Shown: positions 1 to 10,806 of the stretch, piece by piece
Layout of the letters: each line of letters begins with the position of its first letter
How positions within the stretch are numbered: position 1 is the first letter of the stretch
From: a virus
Virus record (IMG/VR): IMGVR_UViG_3300049255_000405
Length of the DNA: 10,806 nt
Direction: 5' to 3' (one strand)
The notes under the pieces: model-generated
Told to the model about the DNA's origin: nothing
Databases searched by the model: none
The model's input: the letters and a program-made list of their open reading frames with translations, nothing else
Translations under genes and position numbers: made by a program

Positions 1-693
1 GCCTGGGTTGTTCATGTCGGGCGGATACGCGCGCCCGCTCGGGGTGGGAAGCGGAGGGCCCCACAGGAAAGGCCGGTAATTCGTGGTTTTCTTCGGATCA
101 GGCTCATATTTGTCAGCTGCGTGGACGTTCACCTCCACCGAGTCCACATCGAGTTGGCTGCCTGCATTCGACTCTTGAAGCGCCGGCGAGAAAAAGACCT
201 GTCCTTGACCGCCGGCGAGGATGCCGGACCGGACCTCTCCTGTAAACTCGGCGAGCGGAATGCTGGTCAGCGGGACTCCCAAAGGAGTCGGCGGATACTG
301 GACATTCGGCTTGGCCTGGACCATGTACGACTGCGTGGTCGTACCGCCATCGGTGGTGCTCGCCTGGACGACAACAGAGACTGTGGCCGGATAGTCAAAA
401 CCGGCTATGATGTTGAAAGAATAGCCGTTGTCCGGGATGCTATACTCGTAGCTCGAGCCCGTGAACTGCGGATCGAAACTCGCGGTGCTTCCATCGAAGC
501 ACGGCAAGGCAGCGATGCTGATCTGCACGGTCGACAGATCGATGAGTCCGCCCTGGACTCCGATCGTCAGCTGAATCGCGTTCGTGCCTGTGGGTATAAG
601 GTCGCCGGGCTCCGGATTGAGCCCGGTCAAATATATGACACCACCACCGCCGTAGTTTGAGCCGAATTCTGCGCCCCAGCCAGGTGCGGGCAT
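1..693 (-). CDS. Hypothetical structural protein; N-terminal 231 aa only, the gene continues past the window start
   Basis: Hand translation of the minus strand from ATG (complement of 691..693) is open with no stop down to position 1: MPAPGWGAEFGSNYGGGGVIYLTGLNPEPGDLIPTGTNAIQLTIGVQGGLIDLSTVQISIAALPCFDGSTASFDPQFTGSSYEYSIPDNGYSFNIIAGFDYPATVSVVVQASTTDGGTTTQSYMVQAKPNVQYPPTPLGVPLTSIPLAEFTGEVRSGILAGGQGQVFFSPALQESNAGSQLDVDSVEVNVHAADKYEPDPKKTTNYRPFLWGPPLPTPSGRAYPPDMNNPG... A GGAGG Shine-Dalgarno sits 7 nt upstream. The gene is co-directional with and 71 nt downstream of the giant gene. It is absent from the ORF track because it is truncated by the window edge. The listed ORFs 121..660 (+) and 440..721 (-) are other frames of this same locus. 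Confidence 0.6.
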   Translation of the reverse strand, partial: MPAPGWGAEFGSNYGGGGVIYLTGLNPEPGDLIPTGTNAIQLTIGVQGGLIDLSTVQISIAALPCFDGSTASFDPQFTGSSYEYSIPDNGYSFNIIAGFDYPATVSVVVQASTTDGGTTTQSYMVQAKPNVQYPPTPLGVPLTSIPLAEFTGEVRSGILAGGQGQVFFSPALQESNAGSQLDVDSVEVNVHAADKYEPDPKKTTNYRPFLWGPPLPTPSGRAYPPDMNNPG

Positions 694-700
694 TCCGATG

Positions 701-705
701 CCTCC
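701..705 (-). promoter_or_regulatory. Shine-Dalgarno GGAGG for the 693..1 gene
   Basis: Minus-strand sequence GGTGGAGGCATCGGA-ATG; GGAGG lies 7 nt before the ATG. Confidence 0.55.
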
Positions 706-764
706 ACCGCACGTTACCCATTAGGCGCCTAGCTGCAGGGCTCGGTATTTAGTTACAGATACCC

Positions 765-1250
765 TCAGCTCAGCACAGCGATGGAGAACGAATTGGTCGC
801 TGCAGTGCGTATCAGCTTGTAAGTGTGGAAATTCCCGTCTGCCCAGTTGAAAGCTCGACGGAAAAGGCACTTGTTGGCGTTGAGGTCCTGGATCTTGATG
901 AAGTTCACGCTGTTGACGGTGTCGAAACCGATGGCTGCCGTGAACCCGGGACCCGCCATGCCGCTGATACCGATGTAGATATTCGTGTCGCCCGTGATGG
1001 GGTCTGGCACCGCCGCGTTGATGCGCACGCTGAAGGTCACGTCGAAATCCAGCGACGTGGCGTCGGGTAGTCCGGACGGGCTGATGTACACGGTCTTGGT
1101 ACCTGTGCCCGTCGTGCTGTAACGCAAGAAGTCGGTCACGCCCACGCTCAGGAGCTGGAGGGTGACCGCTCCCGGATTGTCCGCCGCCAGGACGAACGGC
1201 GTGAACTGCGCCACGTCGAGTCCGAGCTTGATTGACGCCGGCCCGCCGAC
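765..1250 (-). other. C-terminal domain of the giant protein with a third LamG-like motif (FNWADGNFHTYKLIRTAATNSFSIAVLS); candidate distal receptor-binding tip
   Basis: C-terminal residues about 2052-2080 match the same W...H-T-Y-K/R motif as copies 1 and 2. In fibre proteins the C-terminal domain is usually the receptor-binding tip (established general knowledge). Confidence 0.3.
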
Positions 1251-4200
1251 GAAGATTGAAGAGGGTGGACCGATGGTGGGACTGGTCAGGCGCAGCCTTC
1301 CGTCGCCATTATTTGACGCAAAGTTCGCCGGGATTCCCGGCGTTCCGTTGATACGAGACACGACCGCGCCGATGGTAGTGTCCGTCGCCTGGAACTGGAC
1401 GATAATCGGTGGGTTTGTATCGATCGCAATACTCAGATTATCGCCGGCCTCGATGGAGAATGGTTGAACATTGGCTCCGACCAAGTTGACCTGTTCGGGG
1501 AACGAGCCGCCTTCGTACGAGAGCGTGTGATCGGTCTGGTACTTCAGACCGCCCATGTGAAGGGTTTCGTCATCCGAAAACGGAGCGACGAGTCCAGCCT
1601 CTCCCGTCGTTATGGGGAAGAACTTCAGATTCTCGTACAGGACGCCGGACGGCGGGTCGATGTGAATGAAGATGGAGTTGCCGTGGACGCCCGGCTGAGT
1701 CAGGTGCAAGTTGTACGCGAGGTTGATGGCATCGGCGAGGACTGCCATCGTTCCTTCGTCGACAGCATCTGGGGCAGTCACCACATTCACGGTGTCATTC
1801 ATCACGTGGGCGGGAGCGTCCGAGTCGTTGACGACGGCCACTCTGTGCGCGTTGAAGTTGGCCTTGAGGGCGTTCGCCAAGGCGATACCGGTCGGCAAAT
1901 CCACCGCCGGCGGCAGGAGCACGGCGTCGAACTGGTCGTTGGACAAGTGCACGCGGTACTGCACGACGTGCTTGTTGAACGCCGCGAGGAGGTTGTTCAG
2001 GACAACGAGAGTTCCGGCGAGGAATGGCTGTACGACGAACGCCGTGCCGAGATTGTAGCCCTCGAGGTCCACGATGAGGTGGGAATCCTGGACCAGGATG
2101 TGCTGGTTGTAGTGGTTGGCGAGGTTGTTCGCGAAGGTGATTCCGGTGGGCAGGTCGACAGGCGGAGAATCGGAGTCGCTGTTGAAGCGGTCGATCCCTT
2201 TGTGCACGCCGGGCGCGTTCGGTCGATCGACGTTGACGATGTGCCGATTGAACTGAGTCTCGATGTCCGGCAGGAGGGCGAGAGCGCTCGGCAGGTCGAA
2301 GCAGGGCGGAGCTGTCGAAATGTCGACAGTGTCTGGCCGAACGTGCACTCCCACTTCCGACAAGTGGGCGTTGTAGAACGCCTGCAGGTCGTTGGACAGA
2401 GTGATGAGAGTCGGCAGATCCGATGCGGTGAGAGGCTCGAGGTTGATGATGTCGATGACGTTGTGAGGCCAGGTCCTTTCGACGTGCTCGACGAAGACCT
2501 GTTGGAAATTCTGCACCAGAGTGGCCAGGCTGGGTGCATCCGTCGCCGGCGGAGCCGTAATGGCGAACAGAGTGTCCGCGATGACGTGGACGCCGGCGGC
2601 CACGCGGTGAGCTTCGTAATTCGTGCGCACCTGATTCATCGCCGAGATGGCGTTGGGCAAGTTGAACATGCCCGGGATGGGAACGGTGTCTCCTGGATCG
2701 TTCGTCTGATGAACGCCTGGCGAAATGAGGTGATTGTTGAAGGTCGGAATGACCTGCGTGAAGACGATGGAAATGAGTTCCGTGATGGGCGTGTCGGACG
2801 ACGTCGCGTTGGTGGTGTCGTCCTCGAGGTCTGAGAGGAACCCACTCTCATCGACGAACTGAAGGGCGGGGACGGCCTCTTGCAGAGTCGCGGTCTTGCT
2901 CAGCCCACCACGCGACTGCAAATCCTGCGTCATGGGCACCGGAGGAGTGCCCTCGCCCAGGTTTGTGAAGGCGGCCAGAGCCGGGTTCGACAAGAAGTCG
3001 TCGGAAGGAGTCCCTCCCGAGTAAACCGTGAAACCTGCGTGCTCATGTGGCAGCTGAGTGTGCAGGTGCTCAGGAGAGACGACCGCGTTGGCCTGATTGA
3101 GCGTCTGGTGCGGCGGGATGAGGCGATTGGTCAGCGTCAGCTTGCCGATCGAATACTTGATCGGACCCCAAATGACGCGAGCGATTTCTTCGGGGTCGAA
3201 ACACCCGAACGCGATGCATTCCCTGTTGCCAGTAATCGGCTGCAGGAAACTCGCCGCAACCCCTGGAAGCTTGATAGCGTCGTAGTTGATGGAGATGACG
3301 GGGATGTTACCGCCGTCGAGAAAGACGGACACATTCCCTGACGGGTCACGCACCACACGATAAGTGTGGGACTGAGTCCAATCGACCTGAGAGATGTAGT
3401 ACGAGGCAAGAAGCGACGGATCTCCGCCCGAGTAGATACCGATGAATCTCCTGGAAGCCGCCGTAGGATCTGCGACCTTCAGGTCGCGGAATCCGCAGAC
3501 CGACCTCCAGTCGACCACGGACATCGCTGTACTCGGGTCGCCGTTGCCGACCGCCGTACCGCCAGACCCAAAAGTCATGGCTGGACCGACGACACCAGGG
3601 TGGAGGCTGTTGTACGAGAAATTCCCGAGCGAGATGTTATCGCCCAGGACTATGCAGATCCCGGCTGTCTTGTTCGTGAACAGGTCGACTGAGTGGATCT
3701 GCCCATCATTCCAGGCGAACGGGAAAGCTGCTTGCTGATCGAGAAAGCCGGTTGTCGAATTGTACGACAGCACATTGATATATGTGCCGCCGAATTGGTC
3801 TACCGCGTACTGCAGCTCTACATTCTTGCCGGACGTGCCTTCATCGACGTTGACGAGGACTCCAGCGAATTGCAAATTGGTCCCCGAGACGATCGGGTTC
3901 CCCGGAGTGAATGACACGACAGCGAGCCGGAAGTCGACCTTCCAGTCCACAGCGGGATTGAAGACGGGGCTCGTGTACAGAGTGTTGTTCAGAGTGTAGA
4001 CAAGGAAGTCGCTGGTGCTCGAGTCCGTGATCCGCATCGTGCGGCCGAGCATCTCGGACGCCTGGCTTCCAGAAGCCACCCAGTCTGGCGTGTCCTGGTC
4101 CGGGAAAGTCGCGCCAAACCAAGAGACTTTGGGTTCAGGATTGGAGTCGCGTCCGAAGTATGTGCCCAGGGCCAGACCCAACTTCTCCAGTGCGTTTCCG

Positions 4201-7007
4201 CCGAGAAGTCGGAGCTGAGAATTCGCGCCGAGCGTCTGATCCGTCAGAACGATGGCGCCGGAGCCGTTGTCCGCGGCGAGCGCGAAGCCTACCGCGGCGT
4301 TGATGACGGTCGAAACCTGCGCTGTGGTCGTCGCTGGTGAGGTGAAAGTGACGGTGATGGGCTCCGCCGAACCGATGCCAATAATGGCGGTGTCGTTGGT
4401 GGCGATGCCGAAAGGTTGCGTCGATGTCCCGGTGACAGTGGCCGCGCTCGGGGTGTCCTGCAGGAACAGAAGCCACGTCGAGAAGATGTCATCGTCGATG
4501 AAGACGCCGGCGCCCTTGTTGTCCAGGCTGAATGTGTAGAATCCAAGGCTCGCCGTGAACTCCACGGTGCTGGCGGCCACTCGAGTGAGGATAGGCTCGA
4601 GCCGCAAGAACCCGCGATACGCACCGGTTGTCATACCGAGCGCGGCAATGTCATCGAGCGGAGCGCTGGCAGTCGAATCCAGGACGAGCTTGTTGAGCGA
4701 CAGTCGCTCGAAACCCGACTGCCCAATAGTGATCCACGGGGCGGTGGGGTCGAGTTCCGGGAGGACCGTGGGCTCGTAGTCGACCGCTTTGTTGTCGCCA
4801 ATCTGGTCTTCGTCGATGGGCGTGACATCAACGCGGATGAAAGCCCACTTGCTGGTCGAAGTGCTTCGGCGCCACACAGCACCGAAGAACACTTGCGACA
4901 TCGGATTGAGCCGAATGTCGACGTCGGACGTTGCAGGAAGCTGCGCGTGGGTCACGCTTGCTGTGGGGACAACAGCGCCGCTGGTGTAGAGGGAAACGTT
5001 CCCCTCCGAGTCGCGGAAGATGCGGTAAGTCGCGTCGATGGACCAGTTGACTGCTCCACTGACCCAGCTGTCCTCGAACTCCGGGAAGCCAGAGTTGGTG
5101 AGAAACCCGATCTGCTGCACCAGACCCACCGAGTTGACGGTGTCGTTGTTGTAGTGGATGCCAGGAGCGGTCAGGTGCGTGTTGAGGTTGTCACGCAGCT
5201 GGTTGACCAGGGCGAGAGCGCTCGGGAGATCTGTCGAGTCCGGCGCCGTAATCTGGTCGGCCGAGTCAGCGAGCACGTGAATGTGACCGCCGCCGTAGGA
5301 CATGTGCTGATTCATCAGCACTTTGAGGCGGTTCGCGAGGATGATGAGAGAGGTGAGATCCGTCGCGTTGACGATATCCACCGTGTCTATAGTGTCGTTC
5401 GGCCGATGCACACCCGTAAGGATAAGGTGAGCGTCGAAAGCGGCCGACAGATCGTTCACCATTGCAATGGCGGACGAAAGATTATTGGCGTCGGTGAGGA
5501 GCAAGCCGACCAGAGCGACTTTTTGACCATCCGCGAGGCCGAAGCCGACGCCCGTGAAGGTCCCATCCGGAACGGTCTGCGACACGCTCACGCGGAAAGC
5601 TGCGGAGACTGTGCTGTCGAAAGTGAGGTCGATGGGATGCGTGTAGAAAGGAGGCTCGATTCCCGGACCTGGACTCGGGTTAGAGTCCACAATGGTGAGC
5701 CCGGTCCCTCCAGGAGCCAAGCTCATCGTGCCTTGACCCTCGAGCGTCCAGGGGTCTGTCGCCTGATCGGGCAGAGCCGTCGGGTCGTACCTAATCACGA
5801 CCTCGAACACTTCAGCGTTGAGGACCGGGAAGAAAACCCGGTTAGTTGGCACGTTCAGCAGCAGCGTGTTCGGATCGTTGAGGACAGCGCTGTAGCTGCG
5901 CTGGAGCATCTTGTACTTCCAGCCCGTGCGCAGCGGTTGATACGGAGACTTGATGGTGGGAAGCGCGTTCGTCGGGTCGACGAGGGTTGCTTTGGCCCGA
6001 TACGTGTAACCCGGCACGCCCATGAATCCGCGGTTGCCGGATTCGTTGAGGACGAACTCTGGAGAGTTGAGCCTCTGAAACTGCGTCGGTGGATTTCCGA
6101 GAAAATCGTAGTTGATGGTGACGGTGTCGGTCGGTTGTGGTGTGTTCGTCAGCACCACTGCACCGAGGAGACCGAAGACAGCGTCGACACTGGTCTCGAT
6201 GCCGTTGACGAAGACCTGCACATCTGCAGGGCTGTCAGCCACTTCCCCGATGCGCGGGTCCGAGAGAACCCAATTGAATGGACCGATGTTGACGCCCGAC
6301 TGGAAGGCGACTTGAGCGGATGGAACCGTGACCCTGTCGACCGTGTCTCTCTCGTAGTGGTAGACGCCGCTGTCACGGTGAAGTTCGTACGCTTGCCGGA
6401 GAGCGTTGGCCAGATAGAACGCGCTTGCCAGATTGCTCGCTGGCGGCAAGAGCACGACGTCTTGCGAGTCAGGATTGAGGTGAACGGGAGGAACGCCGCC
6501 GGTGAGCCCGATGTGGTTGAGGAACTTCGGCAGAAGCTCGTTGAGGAGAATGATCACACTCGACAAGTCCACCGAATTTTGCGCCAGAACCACGTCTGCC
6601 GGGTCGATGGTGCCGTGCACATATGGCGGCGCTCCCGTCCCGCCATTGACCACGTGGGCGTTGAACTCAGCCTTGATGTTGTTGGCCAAGGCAACGACGG
6701 CCGCAAGCGTCACCTGAGGATCCGAAGCGTCTAGCGTCGCGTTGCCAAGTGCCAGAGTCGTCGAATTCGGCACCGCCGCGATGGGAAAAGTGCCATCATT
6801 GCGTCCGTGCGGACTGCCGGAGATGGTGATCGTCTTGCCGATGAAGGTCAGGTCGAACGATGCAGTCGGGATCTGCACCAGGTTCGGACCGATGACCATG
6901 AGGTTGGAGCCTGTGAGCAGCGGGAGTGGCTGCTTGACGATCACACCCTTGTTGGTGAACAAGGTGCGGTCGCGCACAGACTGGAGGGCGGAGAGCGGGA
7001 CAGTCAT
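765..7007 (-). CDS. Giant 2080-aa mosaic fibre/adhesin-like protein: about 15 copies of a His-pair ~40-aa repeat in three blocks, plus three LamG/concanavalin-like lectin motifs; putative tail fibre or host-recognition protein
   Basis: Single uninterrupted 6.2-kb ORF, essentially impossible by chance. It has internally coherent protein-level repeats. It has no N-terminal signal peptide (MTVPLSALQSVRDRTLFTNKGVIVKQ...). Composition is rich in T/S/N/D/V/G and poor in K/R/C/W, as in beta-rich fibre proteins. Its start ATG overlaps the upstream gene's stop as TGATG. Confidence 0.88.
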   Translation of the reverse strand: MTVPLSALQSVRDRTLFTNKGVIVKQPLPLLTGSNLMVIGPNLVQIPTASFDLTFIGKTITISGSPHGRNDGTFPIAAVPNSTTLALGNATLDASDPQVTLAAVVALANNIKAEFNAHVVNGGTGAPPYVHGTIDPADVVLAQNSVDLSSVIILLNELLPKFLNHIGLTGGVPPVHLNPDSQDVVLLPPASNLASAFYLANALRQAYELHRDSGVYHYERDTVDRVTVPSAQVAFQSGVNIGPFNWVLSDPRIGEVADSPADVQVFVNGIETSVDAVFGLLGAVVLTNTPQPTDTVTINYDFLGNPPTQFQRLNSPEFVLNESGNRGFMGVPGYTYRAKATLVDPTNALPTIKSPYQPLRTGWKYKMLQRSYSAVLNDPNTLLLNVPTNRVFFPVLNAEVFEVVIRYDPTALPDQATDPWTLEGQGTMSLAPGGTGLTIVDSNPSPGPGIEPPFYTHPIDLTFDSTVSAAFRVSVSQTVPDGTFTGVGFGLADGQKVALVGLLLTDANNLSSAIAMVNDLSAAFDAHLILTGVHRPNDTIDTVDIVNATDLTSLIILANRLKVLMNQHMSYGGGHIHVLADSADQITAPDSTDLPSALALVNQLRDNLNTHLTAPGIHYNNDTVNSVGLVQQIGFLTNSGFPEFEDSWVSGAVNWSIDATYRIFRDSEGNVSLYTSGAVVPTASVTHAQLPATSDVDIRLNPMSQVFFGAVWRRSTSTSKWAFIRVDVTPIDEDQIGDNKAVDYEPTVLPELDPTAPWITIGQSGFERLSLNKLVLDSTASAPLDDIAALGMTTGAYRGFLRLEPILTRVAASTVEFTASLGFYTFSLDNKGAGVFIDDDIFSTWLLFLQDTPSAATVTGTSTQPFGIATNDTAIIGIGSAEPITVTFTSPATTTAQVSTVINAAVGFALAADNGSGAIVLTDQTLGANSQLRLLGGNALEKLGLALGTYFGRDSNPEPKVSWFGATFPDQDTPDWVASGSQASEMLGRTMRITDSSTSDFLVYTLNNTLYTSPVFNPAVDWKVDFRLAVVSFTPGNPIVSGTNLQFAGVLVNVDEGTSGKNVELQYAVDQFGGTYINVLSYNSTTGFLDQQAAFPFAWNDGQIHSVDLFTNKTAGICIVLGDNISLGNFSYNSLHPGVVGPAMTFGSGGTAVGNGDPSTAMSVVDWRSVCGFRDLKVADPTAASRRFIGIYSGGDPSLLASYYISQVDWTQSHTYRVVRDPSGNVSVFLDGGNIPVISINYDAIKLPGVAASFLQPITGNRECIAFGCFDPEEIARVIWGPIKYSIGKLTLTNRLIPPHQTLNQANAVVSPEHLHTQLPHEHAGFTVYSGGTPSDDFLSNPALAAFTNLGEGTPPVPMTQDLQSRGGLSKTATLQEAVPALQFVDESGFLSDLEDDTTNATSSDTPITELISIVFTQVIPTFNNHLISPGVHQTNDPGDTVPIPGMFNLPNAISAMNQVRTNYEAHRVAAGVHVIADTLFAITAPPATDAPSLATLVQNFQQVFVEHVERTWPHNVIDIINLEPLTASDLPTLITLSNDLQAFYNAHLSEVGVHVRPDTVDISTAPPCFDLPSALALLPDIETQFNRHIVNVDRPNAPGVHKGIDRFNSDSDSPPVDLPTGITFANNLANHYNQHILVQDSHLIVDLEGYNLGTAFVVQPFLAGTLVVLNNLLAAFNKHVVQYRVHLSNDQFDAVLLPPAVDLPTGIALANALKANFNAHRVAVVNDSDAPAHVMNDTVNVVTAPDAVDEGTMAVLADAINLAYNLHLTQPGVHGNSIFIHIDPPSGVLYENLKFFPITTGEAGLVAPFSDDETLHMGGLKYQTDHTLSYEGGSFPEQVNLVGANVQPFSIEAGDNLSIAIDTNPPIIVQFQATDTTIGAVVSRINGTPGIPANFASNNGDGRLRLTSPTIGPPSSIFVGGPASIKLGLDVAQFTPFVLAADNPGAVTLQLLSVGVTDFLRYSTTGTGTKTVYISPSGLPDATSLDFDVTFSVRINAAVPDPITGDTNIYIGISGMAGPGFTAAIGFDTVNSVNFIKIQDLNANKCLFRRAFNWADGNFHTYKLIRTAATNSFSIAVLS
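1668..2795 (-). repeat. Repeat block C of the giant protein (about residues 1405-1780): 9 tandem copies of the His-pair repeat
   Basis: TFNNHLISPGVHQTND; NYEAHRVAAGVHVIAD; FVEHVERTWPHNVID; DLPTLITLSNDLQAFYNAHLSEVGVHVRPD; DLPSALALLPDIETQFNRHIVNVDRPNAPGVHKGID; DLPTGITFANNLANHYNQHILVQDSHLIVD; VVLNNLLAAFNKHVVQYRVHLSND; DLPTGIALANALKANFNAHRVAVVNDSDAPAHVMND; AVLADAINLAYNLHLTQPGVHGNS. The spacing of the first His is 40-47 aa. Similarity is at protein level only, since the nucleotide sequences have diverged. Confidence 0.7.
3150..3700 (-). other. LamG/concanavalin-like lectin motif 2 in the giant protein (DWTQSHTYRVVRDPSGNVSVFLDGG); domain bounds approximate
   Basis: Residues about 1209-1233, nt about 3309..3383. 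This is the best match of the three to the LamG core W-H-x-x-x-V-x-R-D-x-x-G-x-V-S-x-F-L-D-G. Confidence 0.4.
4900..5150 (-). other. LamG/concanavalin-like lectin motif 1 in the giant protein (W-x-x-x-x-TYRIFRDSEGNVSLY); domain bounds approximate
   Basis: NWSIDATYRIFRDSEGNVSLYTSG (about residues 654-677) resembles the conserved core of laminin-G/ConA-like jelly-roll domains (W-h-h-v-x-v-x-x-D-x-x-G-x-x-x-L-Y-V-D-G). Confidence 0.35.
5148..5495 (-). repeat. Repeat block B of the giant protein (about residues 505-620): 3 copies of the His-pair repeat
   Basis: NLSSAIAMVNDLSAAFDAHLILTGVHRPND / DLTSLIILANRLKVLMNQHMSYGGGHIHVLAD / DLPSALALVNQLRDNLNTHLTAPGIHYNND. The first His falls at residues about 528, 568 and 611, a spacing of 40-44 aa. 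Confidence 0.65.
6318..6725 (-). repeat. Repeat block A of the giant protein (about residues 95-230): 3 copies of the His-pair repeat
   Basis: TLAAVVALANNIKAEFNAHVVNGGTGAPPYVHG / DLSSVIILLNELLPKFLNHIGLTGGVPPVHL / NLASAFYLANALRQAYELHRDSGVYHY. Coordinates are approximate (+/- 10 nt). Confidence 0.6.
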
Positions 7008-9049
7008 CAGGCGCTCACGATCTCGTTTCCGTAGAGGTCCTGCACTCCGTAGATATCAAGAGAGTATTGGGCTTTGGCCATTCCGATGACGTTGATGCTC
7101 AGAACTCTATCGTCGACCCACTCCGAGCCCTTCGTCAACAGTCCCGGTGGCCCAGTAATGACGATGTCCGCCGGCGTGAGTGCGGCCGGGCGGATGGGTT
7201 TAGAGAAGTAGACTTGCACGGCGTCCTGCTCCCAGCGAACACCATTGTTCGTATCGACTACGCCAATCTTCGGGATGGCCGACGCTACGAATGGAGGCGG
7301 CTCCACACCGATGAAGGGAGCCTGGATCATGAACCTCCTCGGCACGGTGCCGTTCCTCACGTCGATGAAGGAATACTGCGATTGCGCCTTCACCTGATAG
7401 GCCGCACCGTTGAGCATCCCGAGGTCGATCTGAAGAGTGTCGTAGAGTTTGGCCGAGTAGAGCGACACGCCAGCGGAATTGTGAACGCCCACGTTCACGT
7501 TGTGCGCCGTGAACGAGTTGGTCAGCCGCTCGAGAAGCAGAACGGCGGAGGGGAGGTCCGTCGCGTACCGCATCCGGACCAAGTTCGGATCCGGATAGTT
7601 GTGGTAGACAGTCGAGCTGGCGTGGTCGAGGTAGATGTCGCGCACGCGGTTGACTGCGGCGATGGCCGAAGCGAGACTGGCTACCGGGAATTCGCTCGGC
7701 AAGAAGTAGTTGATGAAGTCGGGTTGCACATGTCCCGCGCCGTACGGCGTCGTGATGTGCTGATTGTACGACTGCATCAGGTCGGTGACGGCCAGAACGA
7801 GAGCCTGGATGGAAGCGGTGACGTCGGCTCCGTCTGTAGGAACAGCGCTCGTTGGTCCAAGCACTGAAAGACTTTGGAGTGCCGGAAGCTGGATTCCCTG
7901 CGAGAATCGGAAACCCGCTTGTTGCGGGATCACCTGAGTGCCGACCACACGAGGCGGCGTCGCCAGAGGAAGAACTGAAATGCTGCCTGTGTAATCACCA
8001 GGATTCGTTGTACGAGCGAGATCTTCGCTTTGAATTTGCGCAGTCAGCTGGTACGACGGATTCGGGCTCGTCGCCGCGACCTCCACCTGGGCGAAATACG
8101 TGCAGGTATCCACCGCCGGGAACGCGAGGCCGTCCTGTGCCGAACTCCAATCGCGCACCGACTTGATGACCACGGGCGAACCGTTGGACGTCACCGTCCA
8201 GTTCGCGGTGTTGATGACCTCAGCATGGGCCATCGTGCAGCTGAAGAACACGTTGATGAAGGCGCGGTTGTACCCGCTGGGTGCGTCGGAAACGCTGTCG
8301 ACCCATGCATCGATGATCTGCGGCTGGCTGAGGACAGCGTATGTGTAAGGCTGCGGTGCCCGCAAAGTCAGTGACAGAGGGATAGTAGCCTGCACTTGAT
8401 TGTACGACCCGTCGACCACGTCCGCGAACGAGATGGTGTAGCTCGAGGCTGTGTCCATCGCCGGATTCAGCTCGAACCGAAGGACGTTGGCCGGGAACGA
8501 TCCATCCCACGGAATGCGGGTCATGGGTTGAGGTGTCCCTCCCATTGCCGCCTGGATGGTCGCTGTGCACGCTGGAGAACTCGGACCTACGGACCGGTCG
8601 AAATAGATGTCGACCATATTCCGGAGCGAGAGAAACGCTCCGATGGCCAGAGGAGGGTTCGGCACGTTTGCCCGAAAGTTTCCAGCACTCGGAGTCACAC
8701 TGTTGCCATCTGGACTCGTGACGCCGACGATGGAGAGCGCGTAGACCGTCTGGAATGTGAGCGACTGATTGAGCGTGAGGGCGACGGACCTATGGTCCGC
8801 GTCGTAGAAAGAGACGGTGACTACGACCGGGACGTAGTTCGGGACCGGGCCGCTGACGGCGAGCATCGAGTAAGCGCCCGGTTGAAGGGCGGACTCGTCA
8901 ACTTGGTCGTCGAACTGAACTCGAATAGTTCGCTGATCAAGCACGTGCGGTGTGAACCCGAACGGCAGAGGCGGAAACTGGCCGATACCGCCAAGAACGA
9001 TCTTGCCTAGCTGGCTACCGGCGCCTCCGAGCTGTCCAGTGAACGGCAT
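7007..9049 (-). CDS. 680-aa protein with four bacterial Ig-like (SbsA/Big_5-like) domains and three copies of the His-pair repeat; putative fibre/baseplate-associated structural protein
   Basis: Complete ORF. AAGGTG Shine-Dalgarno 4 nt upstream of the ATG. Only 11 nt after the stop of the collagen-like gene. Its stop overlaps the next start (TGATG). No signal peptide (MPFTGQLGGAGSQLGKIVLGG...). Confidence 0.85.
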   Translation of the reverse strand: MPFTGQLGGAGSQLGKIVLGGIGQFPPLPFGFTPHVLDQRTIRVQFDDQVDESALQPGAYSMLAVSGPVPNYVPVVVTVSFYDADHRSVALTLNQSLTFQTVYALSIVGVTSPDGNSVTPSAGNFRANVPNPPLAIGAFLSLRNMVDIYFDRSVGPSSPACTATIQAAMGGTPQPMTRIPWDGSFPANVLRFELNPAMDTASSYTISFADVVDGSYNQVQATIPLSLTLRAPQPYTYAVLSQPQIIDAWVDSVSDAPSGYNRAFINVFFSCTMAHAEVINTANWTVTSNGSPVVIKSVRDWSSAQDGLAFPAVDTCTYFAQVEVAATSPNPSYQLTAQIQSEDLARTTNPGDYTGSISVLPLATPPRVVGTQVIPQQAGFRFSQGIQLPALQSLSVLGPTSAVPTDGADVTASIQALVLAVTDLMQSYNQHITTPYGAGHVQPDFINYFLPSEFPVASLASAIAAVNRVRDIYLDHASSTVYHNYPDPNLVRMRYATDLPSAVLLLERLTNSFTAHNVNVGVHNSAGVSLYSAKLYDTLQIDLGMLNGAAYQVKAQSQYSFIDVRNGTVPRRFMIQAPFIGVEPPPFVASAIPKIGVVDTNNGVRWEQDAVQVYFSKPIRPAALTPADIVITGPPGLLTKGSEWVDDRVLSINVIGMAKAQYSLDIYGVQDLYGNEIVSA
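7010..7228 (-). other. C-terminal Ig-like domain of the 680-aa protein
   Basis: VQVYFSKPIRPAALTPADIVITGPPG...VLSINVIGMAKAQYSLDIYGVQDLYGNEI. The classic SbsA_Ig-type ending is ...V-x-D-L-x-G-N. Confidence 0.45.
7460..7828 (-). repeat. Three His-pair repeats in the 680-aa protein (residues about 408-530)
   Basis: DVTASIQALVLAVTDLMQSYNQHITTPYGAGHVQPD / FPVASLASAIAAVNRVRDIYLDHASSTVYHNYPD / DLPSAVLLLERLTNSFTAHNVNVGVHNSAG. This is the same family as in the giant protein, and the first-His spacing is 45 and 40 aa. Confidence 0.65.
8054..8923 (-). other. Three tandem Ig-like domains (SbsA_Ig/Big_5-like) in the 680-aa protein
   Basis: RVQFDDQVDESAL...VTVSFYDADHRSVALTLNQSLTFQTVYALSIVGVTSPDGNSV; VDIYFDRSV...WDGSFPANVLRFELNPAMDTASSYTISFADVVDGSYNQV; INVFFSCTMAHAEVINTANWTVTSNGSPVVIKSV...CTYFAQVEV. 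These follow the V-x-V-x-F-S-x-x-V ... T-Y-T-V-x-V ... D-x-x-G-N pattern of bacterial Ig-like domains. Confidence 0.45.
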
Positions 9050-9060: not shown

Positions 9061-10686
9061 CTAGAAGGTAGCGATCAGCATCCAGTCATTTTGCCCGTCG
9101 CTGACAAACATGTAGGAGGTGCGTGAACTGACGGGTGTGAACGAGAGCCCAGTCTGCCCGTCCATTGTGTCCGCCCCGGTTGGAACCAAGCCGACTGCAT
9201 TCGTCGAGGTCGCGATGGCCTTGACCACGATGGGAATGCCGTAGTAGAGAGCGGCCTCAGGGAAGAGGACGTTGACCGGCTGGTGCGTGGAATTCACGCG
9301 CACGATCTGTCCGGGCTCCGCAAGGACAGTGATCGCCGATTGCTCAGGCGTGGGGGAATAGCTGGTGTTGATGGGCCCGGTGACGCCTTGCGGTCCCTGA
9401 ATACCCGTAGCACCGATGGGCCCTTGAGGACCTGTGGCGCCTTGCGGTCCAGTCGGTCCGATGGCACCCTGAGGACCAATATCGCCGGTCGGGCCCTGTA
9501 CACCAGTGGCTCCCGGGGGCCCGCCAAAAGGACCAGTTGGTCCTTGATCTCCCTGCGGCCCCGTGGCACCCGCAGGTCCGGTCGGACCCGTCGCGCCCGT
9601 GAGACCCTGGTTTCCTTGGGGGCCCTGGACGCCGGTCGCGCCTTGCGGGCCGGTCGCCCCAACAGGGCCAGTTGGCCCGAGAGGGCCGGTGAATCCGATA
9701 GGCCCGGGAGTCCCTTCGATACCCTGGACGCCGGTCGCTCCTTGGGGTCCCGTCGCACCTTGCGGGCCGACTGCACCCGTAGGGCCGGGCGGACCACCGA
9801 ATGGGCCGGTGGGTCCTTGCGGACCAGCGGAGCCCGTTGGTCCGGCAGGCCCTGCAGGGCCTGTTGCACCAGCTTGACCGGTTCCCTCGAGCGCAATGGC
9901 TGAAAGGTTGCCCGCGTCGAACTGGATTTGGTTGCCACCTACGCTTCGCCACTGGACTTTGACGGTATACGTCCCGGCGGGAAGTTGAGTGCTAACAAAG
10001 TTGTTCGAGACAATTGCGGCTTCGTTAGTGTTCACCTCATTGCGCCGAATCTCCGAGCTAAGTTGCCCGTCGATGTAGAGAATGATGCCGATGGACTCCG
10101 TGGTGCTAATCTGCTCCCACTGGATATCGGTTTGAGCGTAAATAGCGCAAGTTGCGCTGGTCGTAATAGTCGTGCCGAGCCCAGGAACATCGACAAACGA
10201 CGTCGACGTAGTTGTGGCGGGCCCGACTGCAGATGCGTAGGCAGAATCGATCGGGTTGTTCGGACCTGCAGGCCCTGTAGCGCCATCAGCCCCGGTGGCT
10301 CCCGGGATACCCTGCGGCCCCTGGATTCCCTGCGGACCCTGAGGGCCAGTGGAGCCCTGCGGACCGATTGCCCCGGTTGGTCCCTGGACACCGGTGGGCC
10401 CGATGGTGCCCTCGACGAAATTGGTCAGAGCGCCAGCAGTCAAAACGTGAGTGACAGTCGCTCCCGGGAGGTGCTGAGCCGGAGGCGTGTTCTCGATGCC
10501 GCGGATGACAGAGAAGACGCTGCCCTGAATACCCGTCACCAGCATCAACTCGTTGTCGATGCGGATGCGGAACTGCGGCGCCGGCGGGAACTGGGTGACG
10601 TTCGTCGTCTGGACGTAGTTCGTCACTGCGTCCAGCGGCAGCTGCAGAGTCCCCTGGGCTGTGTTGGCAAATTGCTCTTGGGCCAT
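9061..10686 (-). CDS. Collagen-like triple-helix repeat fibre protein, 541 aa. Layout: N-terminal domain, G-X-Y tract 1, globular beta-rich domain, G-X-Y tract 2, C-terminal domain
   Basis: Long runs of uninterrupted Gly-X-Y triplets rich in P/Q/T/A ([47 protein letters not shown] and a second tract of about 170 aa). Complete ORF with ATG. No signal peptide. Confidence 0.9.
9373..9885 (-). repeat. Collagen-like G-X-Y tract 2 (about 57 triplets, residues about 268-438) with two one-residue register 'stutters' ([11 protein letters not shown])
   Basis: [43 protein letters not shown]...[32 protein letters not shown]...[11 protein letters not shown]. The GPF-GGP-PG motif occurs twice, about 91 residues apart, as part of an internal duplication. 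Each occurrence shifts the Gly register by one residue. Confidence 0.85.
9886..10260 (-). other. Globular beta-rich domain between the collagen tracts (possibly C1q/TNF-like, as in BclA-type collagen-like proteins)
   Basis: [125 protein letters not shown]. It shows alternating hydrophobic beta-strand character. Its position, interrupting a collagen stalk, is unusual. Confidence 0.35.
10261..10404 (-). repeat. Collagen-like G-X-Y tract 1 (about 16 triplets, residues about 95-142)
   Basis: [50 protein letters not shown]. Confidence 0.85.
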
Positions 10687-10735: not shown

Positions 10736-10806
10736 CTAGAAATCGCTGCTGTGATCTTCTCCGACCACTTGCTTGGCCCGTTTGAAGCCCGCGGTGTCCA
10801 ACCCGG
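10736..10806 (-). CDS. Possible 3' end of an upstream co-directional gene (C-terminus ...GLDTAGFKRAKQVVGEDHSSDF-stop); an alternative frame ends at 10711
   Basis: Two of three minus-strand frames stay open from the window edge. One runs to TAG at 10736..10738 and the other to TGA at 10711..10713. There is no way to choose between them without upstream sequence. Confidence 0.2.
   Translation of the reverse strand, partial: GLDTAGFKRAKQVVGEDHSSDF

What the first reader, a model, noticed from the sequence alone, without database searches (positions are those of the whole stretch)
9061..10686. Collagen-like fibre protein whose triple-helix stalk is interrupted by a globular domain, with two register-shifting 'stutters'
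Most bacterial and phage collagen-like proteins have one G-X-Y tract followed by a C-terminal globular head. This one has a tract of about 16 triplets, then an inserted beta-rich domain of about 125 aa (possibly C1q/TNF-like), then a tract of about 57 triplets, then a separate C-terminal domain of about 100 aa. The long tract contains the motif [11 protein letters not shown] twice, from an internal duplication of about 90 aa. Each copy breaks the Gly-X-Y register by one residue. That would introduce local kinks or hinges into a trimeric stalk. G-X-Y tracts are also known hot spots for length variation by slippage.
Basis: partly seen in the sequence, partly recalled or inferred. Interest (0 to 1): 0.6.

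Follow-up and report, generated by a model that had tools for sequence, protein, structure and literature searches.

The report
Collagen-like phage tail fibre, TNF-like knob
This gene encodes a modular, collagen-like fibre of a phage-type tail: its stalk carries a TNF/C1q-fold knob in the middle and two conserved one-residue breaks, all real features, but each of a kind already common in phage and bacterial collagen-like proteins.

Summary
ORF 9061..10686 (-) encodes 541 aa: an N-terminal domain (1-92), 17 G-X-Y triplets (93-143), a globular domain (144-269), 56 triplets in blocks of 10+30+16 separated by two one-residue breaks inside [11 protein letters not shown] (270-439), and a C-terminal domain (440-541).

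The only full-length homologue (about 60% identity) keeps both stutters, so they are not errors. The two copies have diverged at synonymous sites, so they are old and under selection.

None of this is rare. Among the 149 listed cluster representatives carrying the middle domain, 23 have it flanked by collagen on both sides. The GxyGGPxG break was described in E. coli prophage collagens in 2012, together with two-stalk, three-globule fibres.

Verdict: an ordinary modular tail fibre with an undescribed domain combination. One open structural question remains: how the stalk continues past a knob whose two termini lie on the same face.

The parts
10411..10686 (-). N-terminal domain, aa 1-92 (start ATG at 10686). 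Probable virion or baseplate anchor module with the conserved core [13 protein letters not shown]...RGIE.T......H..GA.V.HVLTAG.
   Evidence: PHROG tail-fibre family phrog_8469 at E=5.5e-5. PDB sequence hits to the phage Chi tail-tip protein 8vjh (E=6e-5) and to JBD30 protein J, 8rk3. The same module heads non-collagen fibre-like proteins on IMG/VR viral contigs L003-L005. It is the best-conserved part versus P0001.
10258..10410 (-). Collagen tract 1, aa 93-143: 17 uninterrupted G-X-Y triplets, about 15 nm long as a triple helix.
   Evidence: Pfam Collagen best stretch at aa 93-142.
9880..10257 (-). Middle globular domain, aa 144-269: an eight-stranded TNF/C1q-type jelly roll of the BC2L-C-Nt/PLTL lectin family, joined to the collagen by linkers of only 3-4 residues on each side.
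9370..9879 (-). Collagen tract 2, aa 270-439: 56 triplets in blocks of 10, 30 and 16, about 49 nm long. Across both tracts, Pro fills 49% of X positions, and Thr (36%) and Gln (30%) dominate Y positions.
9784..9816 (-). Stutter 1: [11 protein letters not shown], aa 291-301. One extra residue, which can be read as G-G adjacency or as G-GPP-G.
   Evidence: Conserved as GPTGPSGGPVG in P0001. The same GxyGGPxG form recurs in other proteins and is described in PMC3368898.
9511..9543 (-). Stutter 2: [11 protein letters not shown], aa 382-392, lying 91 aa after stutter 1.
   Evidence: Conserved as [11 protein letters not shown] in P0001. Nearly every third codon position differs from copy 1.
9064..9369 (-). 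C-terminal domain, aa 440-541 (stop codon at 9061-9063): a nine-stranded mixed beta-sandwich of the XD1 / T4 gp9 middle-domain fold, forming the distal end of the chain.
7007..9049 (-). Downstream 680-aa gene of the same operon (11-nt gap after the collagen gene). It has a Big_5 Ig-like domain and three copies of a His-containing repeat of about 42 aa.
   Evidence: Syntenic and 65% identical in L001.
765..7007 (-). Downstream 2080-aa gene whose start overlaps the stop of the 680-aa gene. It carries 14 copies of the same repeat.
   Evidence: It is 74% identical to the split 1623-aa + 406-aa ORFs of L001.

Best explanation
The gene encodes one chain of a homotrimeric fibre belonging to a phage-type (contractile-tail or baseplate-bearing) particle.

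The N-terminal domain (aa 1-92) docks the fibre on the particle. Two collagen triple helices, about 15 nm and about 49 nm long, act as thin spacers. They lack hydroxyproline and are rich in the triplets GPT, GPQ and GAT.

Between the two helices, each chain folds into a TNF/C1q-type jelly roll of the BC2L-C-Nt/PLTL family. This knob most likely serves as a trimerisation and registration node for the two helices. It may also be an extra binding surface, but not with the fucose site of the characterised lectins.

The two conserved [11 protein letters not shown] one-residue breaks locally loosen the long helix and probably act as flexible points.

The C-terminal XD1-like sandwich is the distal end. 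It either binds a glycan receptor or forms the joint to the products of the next two genes.

Shown here: the anatomy, the folds, homology of the knob to the lectin family, conservation of the stutters, and synteny. Inferred: trimer formation, which end attaches to the particle, the hinge role of the stutters, and what the domains bind.
For: Collagen tracts and stutters.

Trimer logic: the solved relatives are trimers (PMC12914763). In addition, 21 collagen-free representatives carry exactly three abutting copies of the domain, as expected for single-chain pseudo-trimers.

Node role: 23 of the 149 listed representatives have the domain flanked by G-X-Y on both sides.

Tail-fibre assignment: N-domain hits to PHROG tail-fibre families and to phage Chi and JBD30 tail-tip proteins. 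The same N-module sits on other viral fibre-like proteins. The syntenic locus L001 has a weak baseplate-wedge gene (phrog_6, E=1e-5) two genes upstream, and the end of the window's upstream ORF matches the L001 280-aa protein.

C-domain fold.

Stutters conserved and old.

Precedent for multi-stalk prophage collagen fibres with the same break: PMC3368898.
Against: There is no experimental or multimer-model evidence for the trimer or for hinges.

The knob's N and C termini should lie on the same face, as in PLTL and in jelly rolls generally (PMC8825819). A simple straight 'stalk-knob-stalk' picture is therefore not automatically possible.

The baseplate hit in L001 is weak, and the source genome was not recovered. 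A tailocin or an extracellular contractile injection system cannot be excluded.

The C-domain model rests on only three sequences (pLDDT 78.7).

The lectin ligand residues are absent, so no binding function is shown for the knob.
Confidence: 0.75

Rival explanations
1. The protein is the same, but it belongs to a bacterial phage-tail-like machine (a tailocin or an extracellular contractile injection system) rather than to an infectious phage. The fibre would then target that machine to other cells.
For: Tail fibres of extracellular contractile injection systems with collagen-like shafts and with C1q or TNFR-like domains are catalogued in PMC12923769. The exact protein is on record on contigs in the 0.2-1 Mb size class, and a fragment of it on a 240-kb contig; these could be bacterial. 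No match to the 680-aa neighbour was found in the INPHARED phage records.
Against: The N-terminal module recurs on IMG/VR viral contigs, including a 210-kb one. Nothing in the window or in L001 is specific to a contractile injection system: no sheath, AAA+ ATPase or toxin gene was seen, although only about 11-12 kb is visible.
Confidence: 0.15
2. The fibre is the proximal segment of a multi-protein fibre. The C-terminal XD1-like domain is not a receptor binder but a joint onto which the downstream 680-aa and/or 2080-aa proteins dock. The TNF-like knob, whose termini lie on one face, forms an elbow or a side branch, as the XD2 and XD3 domains do in T4 gp10 and CBA120 TSP4.
For: The best fold matches of the C-domain are baseplate-proximal adaptor proteins: TSP4-N, a gp9-like protein and the proximal long-tail-fibre subunit. 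The three genes are tightly coupled, with an 11-nt gap and a 1-nt overlap, and are syntenic in L001. Jelly rolls with adjacent termini act as off-axis branch points in gp10 and TSP4 (PMC8825819).
Against: According to PMC8825819, XD1 itself is not the partner-binding module in TSP4 or gp10. The same fold binds glycans in CpaA and StcE. No interaction data exist. The function of the neighbouring genes is unknown.
Confidence: 0.3
3. The stutters are sequencing or assembly artefacts, or recent slippage products without function.
For: G-X-Y coding repeats are prone to slippage and hard to assemble. The homologues differ by whole-triplet indels.
Against: Each break is an in-frame 3-nt feature. Both are present at the same alignment columns in a homologue from a genome with 48% GC, against 60% here. 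An independent assembly is identical over 3682 nt. The two copies share 22/29 aa but only 54/87 nt. The same GxyGGPxG form accounts for most of the 49 one-residue breaks found in 26 of 163 related collagen proteins.
Confidence: 0.02

Closest known systems
EHEC prophage collagen-like tail-fibre proteins EPclA-D (Ghosh et al. 2012, PMC3368898)
   Same: These are trimeric phage fibre proteins with one or two (Gly-X-Y)n domains set between non-collagen globular domains. The EPclB type appears as three globules joined by two stalks. Length varies in whole triplets. [quoted passage not shown]
   Different: The flanking and internal domains are unrelated. The E. coli proteins have PfN, Pf2, PfC and a coiled coil, whereas this protein has an N-module resembling parts of the phage Chi tail-tip protein and JBD30 protein J, a TNF-like knob and an XD1-like end. 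No Pfam Phage_fiber domains were detected here.
BC2L-C N-terminal domain and PLTL, the TNF-like trimeric fucose lectins of Burkholderia and Photorhabdus (PDB 2wq4, 6tid, 9ib6)
   Different: Those lectins are stand-alone or N-terminal soluble domains without collagen. Their fucose ligands Tyr48, Thr74, Arg85 and Arg111 correspond to Gln, Arg, Ile and Gly here. Here the domain is embedded between two collagen helices.
C1q/TNF-headed collagen proteins (C1q, adiponectin, collagen VIII/X NC1, Bacillus BclA and F-BclA, ExsFA)
   Different: In all of these the knob is the C-terminal end of the chain and nucleates a single helix. Here the chain re-enters a second, longer collagen helix after the knob and ends in a different domain.
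XD1 domain of CBA120 TSP4-N / middle domain of T4 gp9 (PMC8825819)
   Same: The C-terminal domain has the same nine-stranded mixed sandwich fold and the same list of structural neighbours (gp9, CpaA, StcE).
   Different: In TSP4 and gp9 the domain is internal and close to the baseplate. Here it is the last domain of the chain, after about 64 nm of collagen. Sequence identity is only 11-16%.

Membership tests
Collagen triple-helix repeat proteins (Pfam PF01391) | Long uninterrupted (Gly-X-Y)n runs that match the Collagen profile above the gathering score. | tested here: met
   Runs of 17 and of 10+30+16 triplets. PF01391 matches at E=7e-31 and 106 bits, against a cut-off of 27.2.
Collagen triple-helix repeat proteins (Pfam PF01391) | Actual formation of a trimeric triple helix (CD maximum near 220 nm, cooperative melting). 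| not testable with these tools
   This needs recombinant protein. It is inferred from the sequence and from the behaviour of EPclA (PMC3368898).
Phage tail fibre proteins | An N-terminal module shared with known tail or tail-tip proteins. | tested here: met
   phrog_8469 tail fibre at E=5.5e-5 and phrog_1101 tail protein at E=5.7e-4. PDB 8vjh (phage Chi) at E=6e-5 and 8rk3 (JBD30) at E=2e-3. The same module is found on IMG/VR proteins.
Phage tail fibre proteins | The gene lies in a tail or baseplate morphogenesis cluster. | tested here: inconclusive
   In the syntenic locus L001, a partial gene two positions upstream matches the baseplate wedge family phrog_6 only weakly (E=1e-5). The other neighbours have no annotation.
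Phage tail fibre proteins | Physical presence in the virion tail. | not testable with these tools
   This needs virion proteomics or cryo-EM.
TNF-like lectins of the BC2L-C-Nt / PLTL family | Significant sequence-profile homology over the whole domain. | tested here: met
   Profile A3 against 6tid, 7bfy and 2wq4 gives E=2e-6 to 5e-6 over profile positions 15-123. Against 9ib6 it gives E=1e-4.
TNF-like lectins of the BC2L-C-Nt / PLTL family | TNF-type jelly-roll fold. | tested here: met
TNF-like lectins of the BC2L-C-Nt / PLTL family | Conserved fucose-binding residues at the protomer interface (BC2L-CN Tyr48, Thr74, Arg85, Arg111). | tested here: not met
   These positions align to Gln192, Arg215, Ile225 and Gly250 in the window protein, and to Thr, Arg, Glu and Gly in P0001. 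The domain is therefore a structural homologue and should not be filed as a fucose lectin.
TNF-like lectins of the BC2L-C-Nt / PLTL family | Homotrimer built around a three-fold axis. | not testable with these tools
   Only single-chain prediction was available. Indirect support comes from the attached collagen trimer and from the three-copy tandem relatives.
C1q domain family (Pfam PF00386) | A match to the C1q sequence profile. | tested here: not met
XD1 / gp9-middle-domain fold | A nine-stranded mixed beta-sandwich whose first six strands alternate between the two sheets, with gp9, TSP4, CpaA and StcE as structural neighbours. | tested here: met

The most novel reading that the evidence does not exclude
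The BC2L-C-type TNF-like domain is a large family with no Pfam or NCBIfam model. One of its recurrent roles is as an intercalated node inside collagen stalks. Its two termini lie on the same face, so the fibre cannot pass straight through a canonical trimer. Such fibres would have to fold back or branch at the knob, or else splay the three jelly rolls out as lateral petals. Either way, this would be a way of building elbows or side-facing binding heads into collagen fibres, one that I did not find described in the papers searched here.
Probability: 0.3. Interest if true: 0.55.

Novelty: new variant of a known kind. Interest (0 to 1): 0.3.

Why it matters
For annotation, the work turns a 'collagen repeat hypothetical protein' into a tail fibre with four assigned modules. 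It also shows that a domain known only from two bacterial fucose lectins belongs to a very large, unmodelled family that is used in stand-alone, triple-tandem and collagen-embedded forms. For collagen biology and protein design, the family offers many natural examples of a compact trimer node that starts a second triple helix, and of a selected one-residue break (GxyGGPxG). The structural effect of such breaks is still unknown. For phage biology it adds little that is new in principle: modular fibres with swapped distal parts are the rule.

Tried and rejected
1. Whole-protein family and homology searches are dominated by the collagen repeat and say nothing about the globular parts. I therefore searched each domain separately.
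2. Single-sequence Pfam and PHROG scans of the middle and C-terminal domains gave nothing significant.
3. Recovering the source genome failed. The exact 680-aa protein is not on record. Protein-pattern scans of viral and metagenome contigs with the 680-aa alignment found no relative. An exact 35-mer was absent from the metagenome, viral and genome collections. The 80-aa JGI fragment P0121 could not be placed on a contig.
4. The word-index search for the C-terminal domain found only a fragment of the same protein and one 105-aa relative, P0270.
5. The 50-sequence alignment of the middle domain was too divergent for the search for related loci.
6. The neighbour proteins have no PDB, Pfam, PHROG or NCBIfam match apart from Big_5.
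7. I rejected the idea that the knob is a fucose lectin, because the ligand residues are absent.
8. I rejected the idea of a recent 90-aa duplication, because nucleotide identity is low.
9. Tandem Repeats Finder reports only short 9/18-nt periodicity and no long DNA repeat.
10. A trimer model could not be made.

Full report
**1. Observation**

The window is about 60% GC, and its real genes all lie on the - strand. ORF 9061..10686 (-) encodes 541 aa. A register scan gives the following layout:
- aa 1-92: non-collagen.
- aa 93-143: 17 G-X-Y triplets.
- aa 144-269: non-collagen.
- aa 270-299, 301-390 and 392-439: 10, 30 and 16 triplets.
- aa 440-541: non-collagen.

The three blocks of the long tract are separated by exactly one extra residue each. 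Both breaks lie inside the motif [11 protein letters not shown] (aa 291-301 and 382-392). Pfam Collagen matches at E=7e-31.

Of the 73 triplets, Pro fills 49% of X positions, and Thr (36%) and Gln (30%) dominate Y. Only four residues are charged. This is the Thr-rich composition reported as typical of bacterial and viral collagens (PMC11923368).

**2. Are the stutters real?**

Each break is an in-frame 3-nt feature, so a frameshift error cannot produce it.

The only full-length homologue in 5.8 billion clustered proteins is P0001 (532 aa; 60% identity by BLASTP, 63% in the MAFFT alignment). It comes from a metagenome contig with 48% GC, against 60% here. It has GPTGPSGGPVG and [11 protein letters not shown] at the same alignment columns, plus one further two-residue break (GATVTG). 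Its other collagen length differences are whole triplets: -1, +2, -2 and -1.

A Logan contig seen in two samples is identical to the window over 3682 nt.

Within the window, the two stutter regions share 22/29 residues but only 54/87 nucleotides, and almost every third codon position differs. The repeat is therefore old and kept by selection on the protein. It is not a recent slip or duplication.

The claimed 90-aa duplication reduces to this 29-aa conserved region spaced 91 aa apart. Elsewhere, non-Gly identity at offset 91 (22 matches over 82 positions) is hardly above that at other offsets.

**3. How unusual is the stutter?**

They contain 49 one-residue breaks (in 26 proteins), 110 two-residue breaks and 43 four-residue breaks. 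Most of the one-residue breaks have the same Gly-x-y-Gly-Gly-x-y-Gly form, for example GPSGGPTG, GPEGGPIG, GDPGGPTG and GPYGGPAG.

Ghosh et al. [quoted passage not shown]

The structural consequence of such breaks is still unknown. A kink has been proposed only by analogy with C1q (PMC11923368). A hinge role here is thus plausible but inferred.

**4. The middle domain**

I mapped the domain and the G-X-Y runs on the 149 listed representatives other than P0001:
- 23 have the domain flanked by collagen on both sides, some of them several times in one chain (for example P0123, P0147, P0020 and P0180).
- 18 have collagen on one side only.
- 21 collagen-free proteins carry three abutting copies.
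- 47 are small stand-alone proteins.

A 50-sequence alignment (A3) gave an AlphaFold2 model with pLDDT 93.6 and eight long strands.

The A3 profile also hits BC2L-C-Nt (6tid, 7bfy, 2wq4) at E=2e-6 to 5e-6, and PLTL at E=1e-4, across the whole domain. This is therefore homology and not only fold resemblance. The shared motifs are TTSxxFVDvPGL and VKxQW[RK]SVxG.

No Pfam or NCBIfam model covers the domain. In BFVD, 593 viral models match the fold at E<=1e-3, among them collagen proteins of phages and giant viruses.

However, the fucose-binding residues of BC2L-CN (Tyr48, Thr74, Arg85, Arg111; PMC7024360) align to Gln192, Arg215, Ile225 and Gly250. A fucose-lectin function should not be transferred.

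**5.

In the model, the first strand starts 4 residues after tract 1, and the last strand ends 3 residues before tract 2.

In PLTL, the N and C termini lie on the same face of the trimer. Jelly rolls in general place their terminal strands adjacent and antiparallel, which in T4 gp10 and CBA120 TSP4 makes such domains off-axis branch points or splayed petals (PMC8825819).

By inference, then, the stalk cannot run straight through a canonical trimer. There are two options:
- The knob forms a canonical trimer and the fibre bends or folds back there.
- The three jelly rolls project sideways from a continuous stalk.

The three-copy tandem relatives argue that the domain does like to form canonical (pseudo)trimers. 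I could not build a trimer model, so this remains the main open question.

**6. The two ends**

The N-terminal domain matches PHROG tail-fibre families (5.5e-5). It also matches short stretches of the phage Chi tail-tip protein (8vjh, E=6e-5) and of JBD30 protein J (8rk3). Pattern scans of IMG/VR found the same module at the start of three otherwise unrelated, collagen-free fibre-like proteins of 781, 998 and 356 aa. One of these lies on a 210-kb viral contig. This is the classic picture of a conserved anchor carrying exchangeable distal parts.

**7. Context**

The gene is followed after 11 nt by a 680-aa gene (with a Big_5 domain), and then, with a 1-nt overlap, by a 2080-aa gene.

L001 has the same order: a partial baseplate-wedge-like gene (phrog_6, E=1e-5), a 280-aa gene, the collagen gene, a 678-aa gene, and 1623-aa + 406-aa ORFs that together equal the 2080-aa protein. 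The last 22 codons of the window's upstream ORF match the end of the L001 280-aa protein.

This position, just after the baseplate genes, suits a tail fibre. A tailocin or a contractile injection system cannot be excluded, since such systems also use collagen shafts with C1q or TNFR-like domains (PMC12923769).

The source genome was not found.

**8. Comparison with what is known, and verdict**

Phage and prophage collagen-like fibres with more than one collagen domain, an internal globule, whole-triplet length variation and a GGP stutter have been described (PMC3368898). Collagen stalks with TNF/C1q heads are classic.

What I did not find described is the combination seen here: a TNF-like domain of the BC2L-C family placed between two collagen helices, with an XD1-like end. 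The database shows that the collagen-knob-collagen arrangement is common (23 of the 149 listed representatives).

I therefore rate the finding as a new variant of a known kind, of modest interest (0.3). The claimed rarity is not supported, and the hinge mechanism is untested.

Noticed in passing
window 765-7007 (-) and 7007-9049 (-): Both downstream giant proteins carry a repeat of about 41-45 aa, 'DLpSal.LaN.L...[FY]N.H.....G[VI]H...Dt', with two conserved histidines. It occurs mostly in sets of three: in the 2080-aa protein 3 copies at aa ~95-245, 3 at ~505-645 and 8 at ~1400-1800; in the 680-aa protein 3 copies at aa ~410-550. There is no Pfam, PHROG, NCBIfam or PDB sequence match. It may be an undescribed, possibly metal-binding fibre repeat.
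   Followed up: partly
L001 5463-11686 compared with window 765-7007: The window's single 2080-aa ORF corresponds to two ORFs in L001 (1623 aa + 406/479 aa). This is probably a frameshift or assembly error in that metagenome contig. This protein is more conserved (74% identity) than the collagen fibre (53-63%), even though the two genomes differ by 12 points in GC content.
   Followed up: partly
proteins P0122, P0125, P0127, P0129 and others: Twenty-one collagen-free proteins contain exactly three abutting copies of the BC2L-C-type TNF-like domain. They look like natural single-chain pseudo-trimers, the arrangement that has been engineered artificially for TNF, adiponectin and C1q.
   Followed up: no
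window 1-720 (-) and 10738-10806 (-): Partial ORFs run off both ends of the window. The upstream one ends ...GLDTAGFKRAKQVVGEDHSSDF, matching the 280-aa protein of L001. The downstream one is 59% identical to the 145-aa ORF of L001. Neither has any family assignment.
   Followed up: partly
window 9283-9952, both strands: Several ORFs of 200 aa or more lie in other frames and on the + strand over the collagen-coding region (for example 9283..9903 +, 9294..9938 -, 9344..9952 -). They are by-products of the GC-rich, stop-poor G-X-Y codon repeat and are not genes.
   Followed up: no
L003 8091-8595: On the 210-kb IMG/VR contig, the N-terminal anchor module appears twice in close succession: once at 8091-8288 and once at the start of the 781-aa ORF. 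This suggests a local duplication or a remnant of a swapped fibre gene.
   Followed up: no
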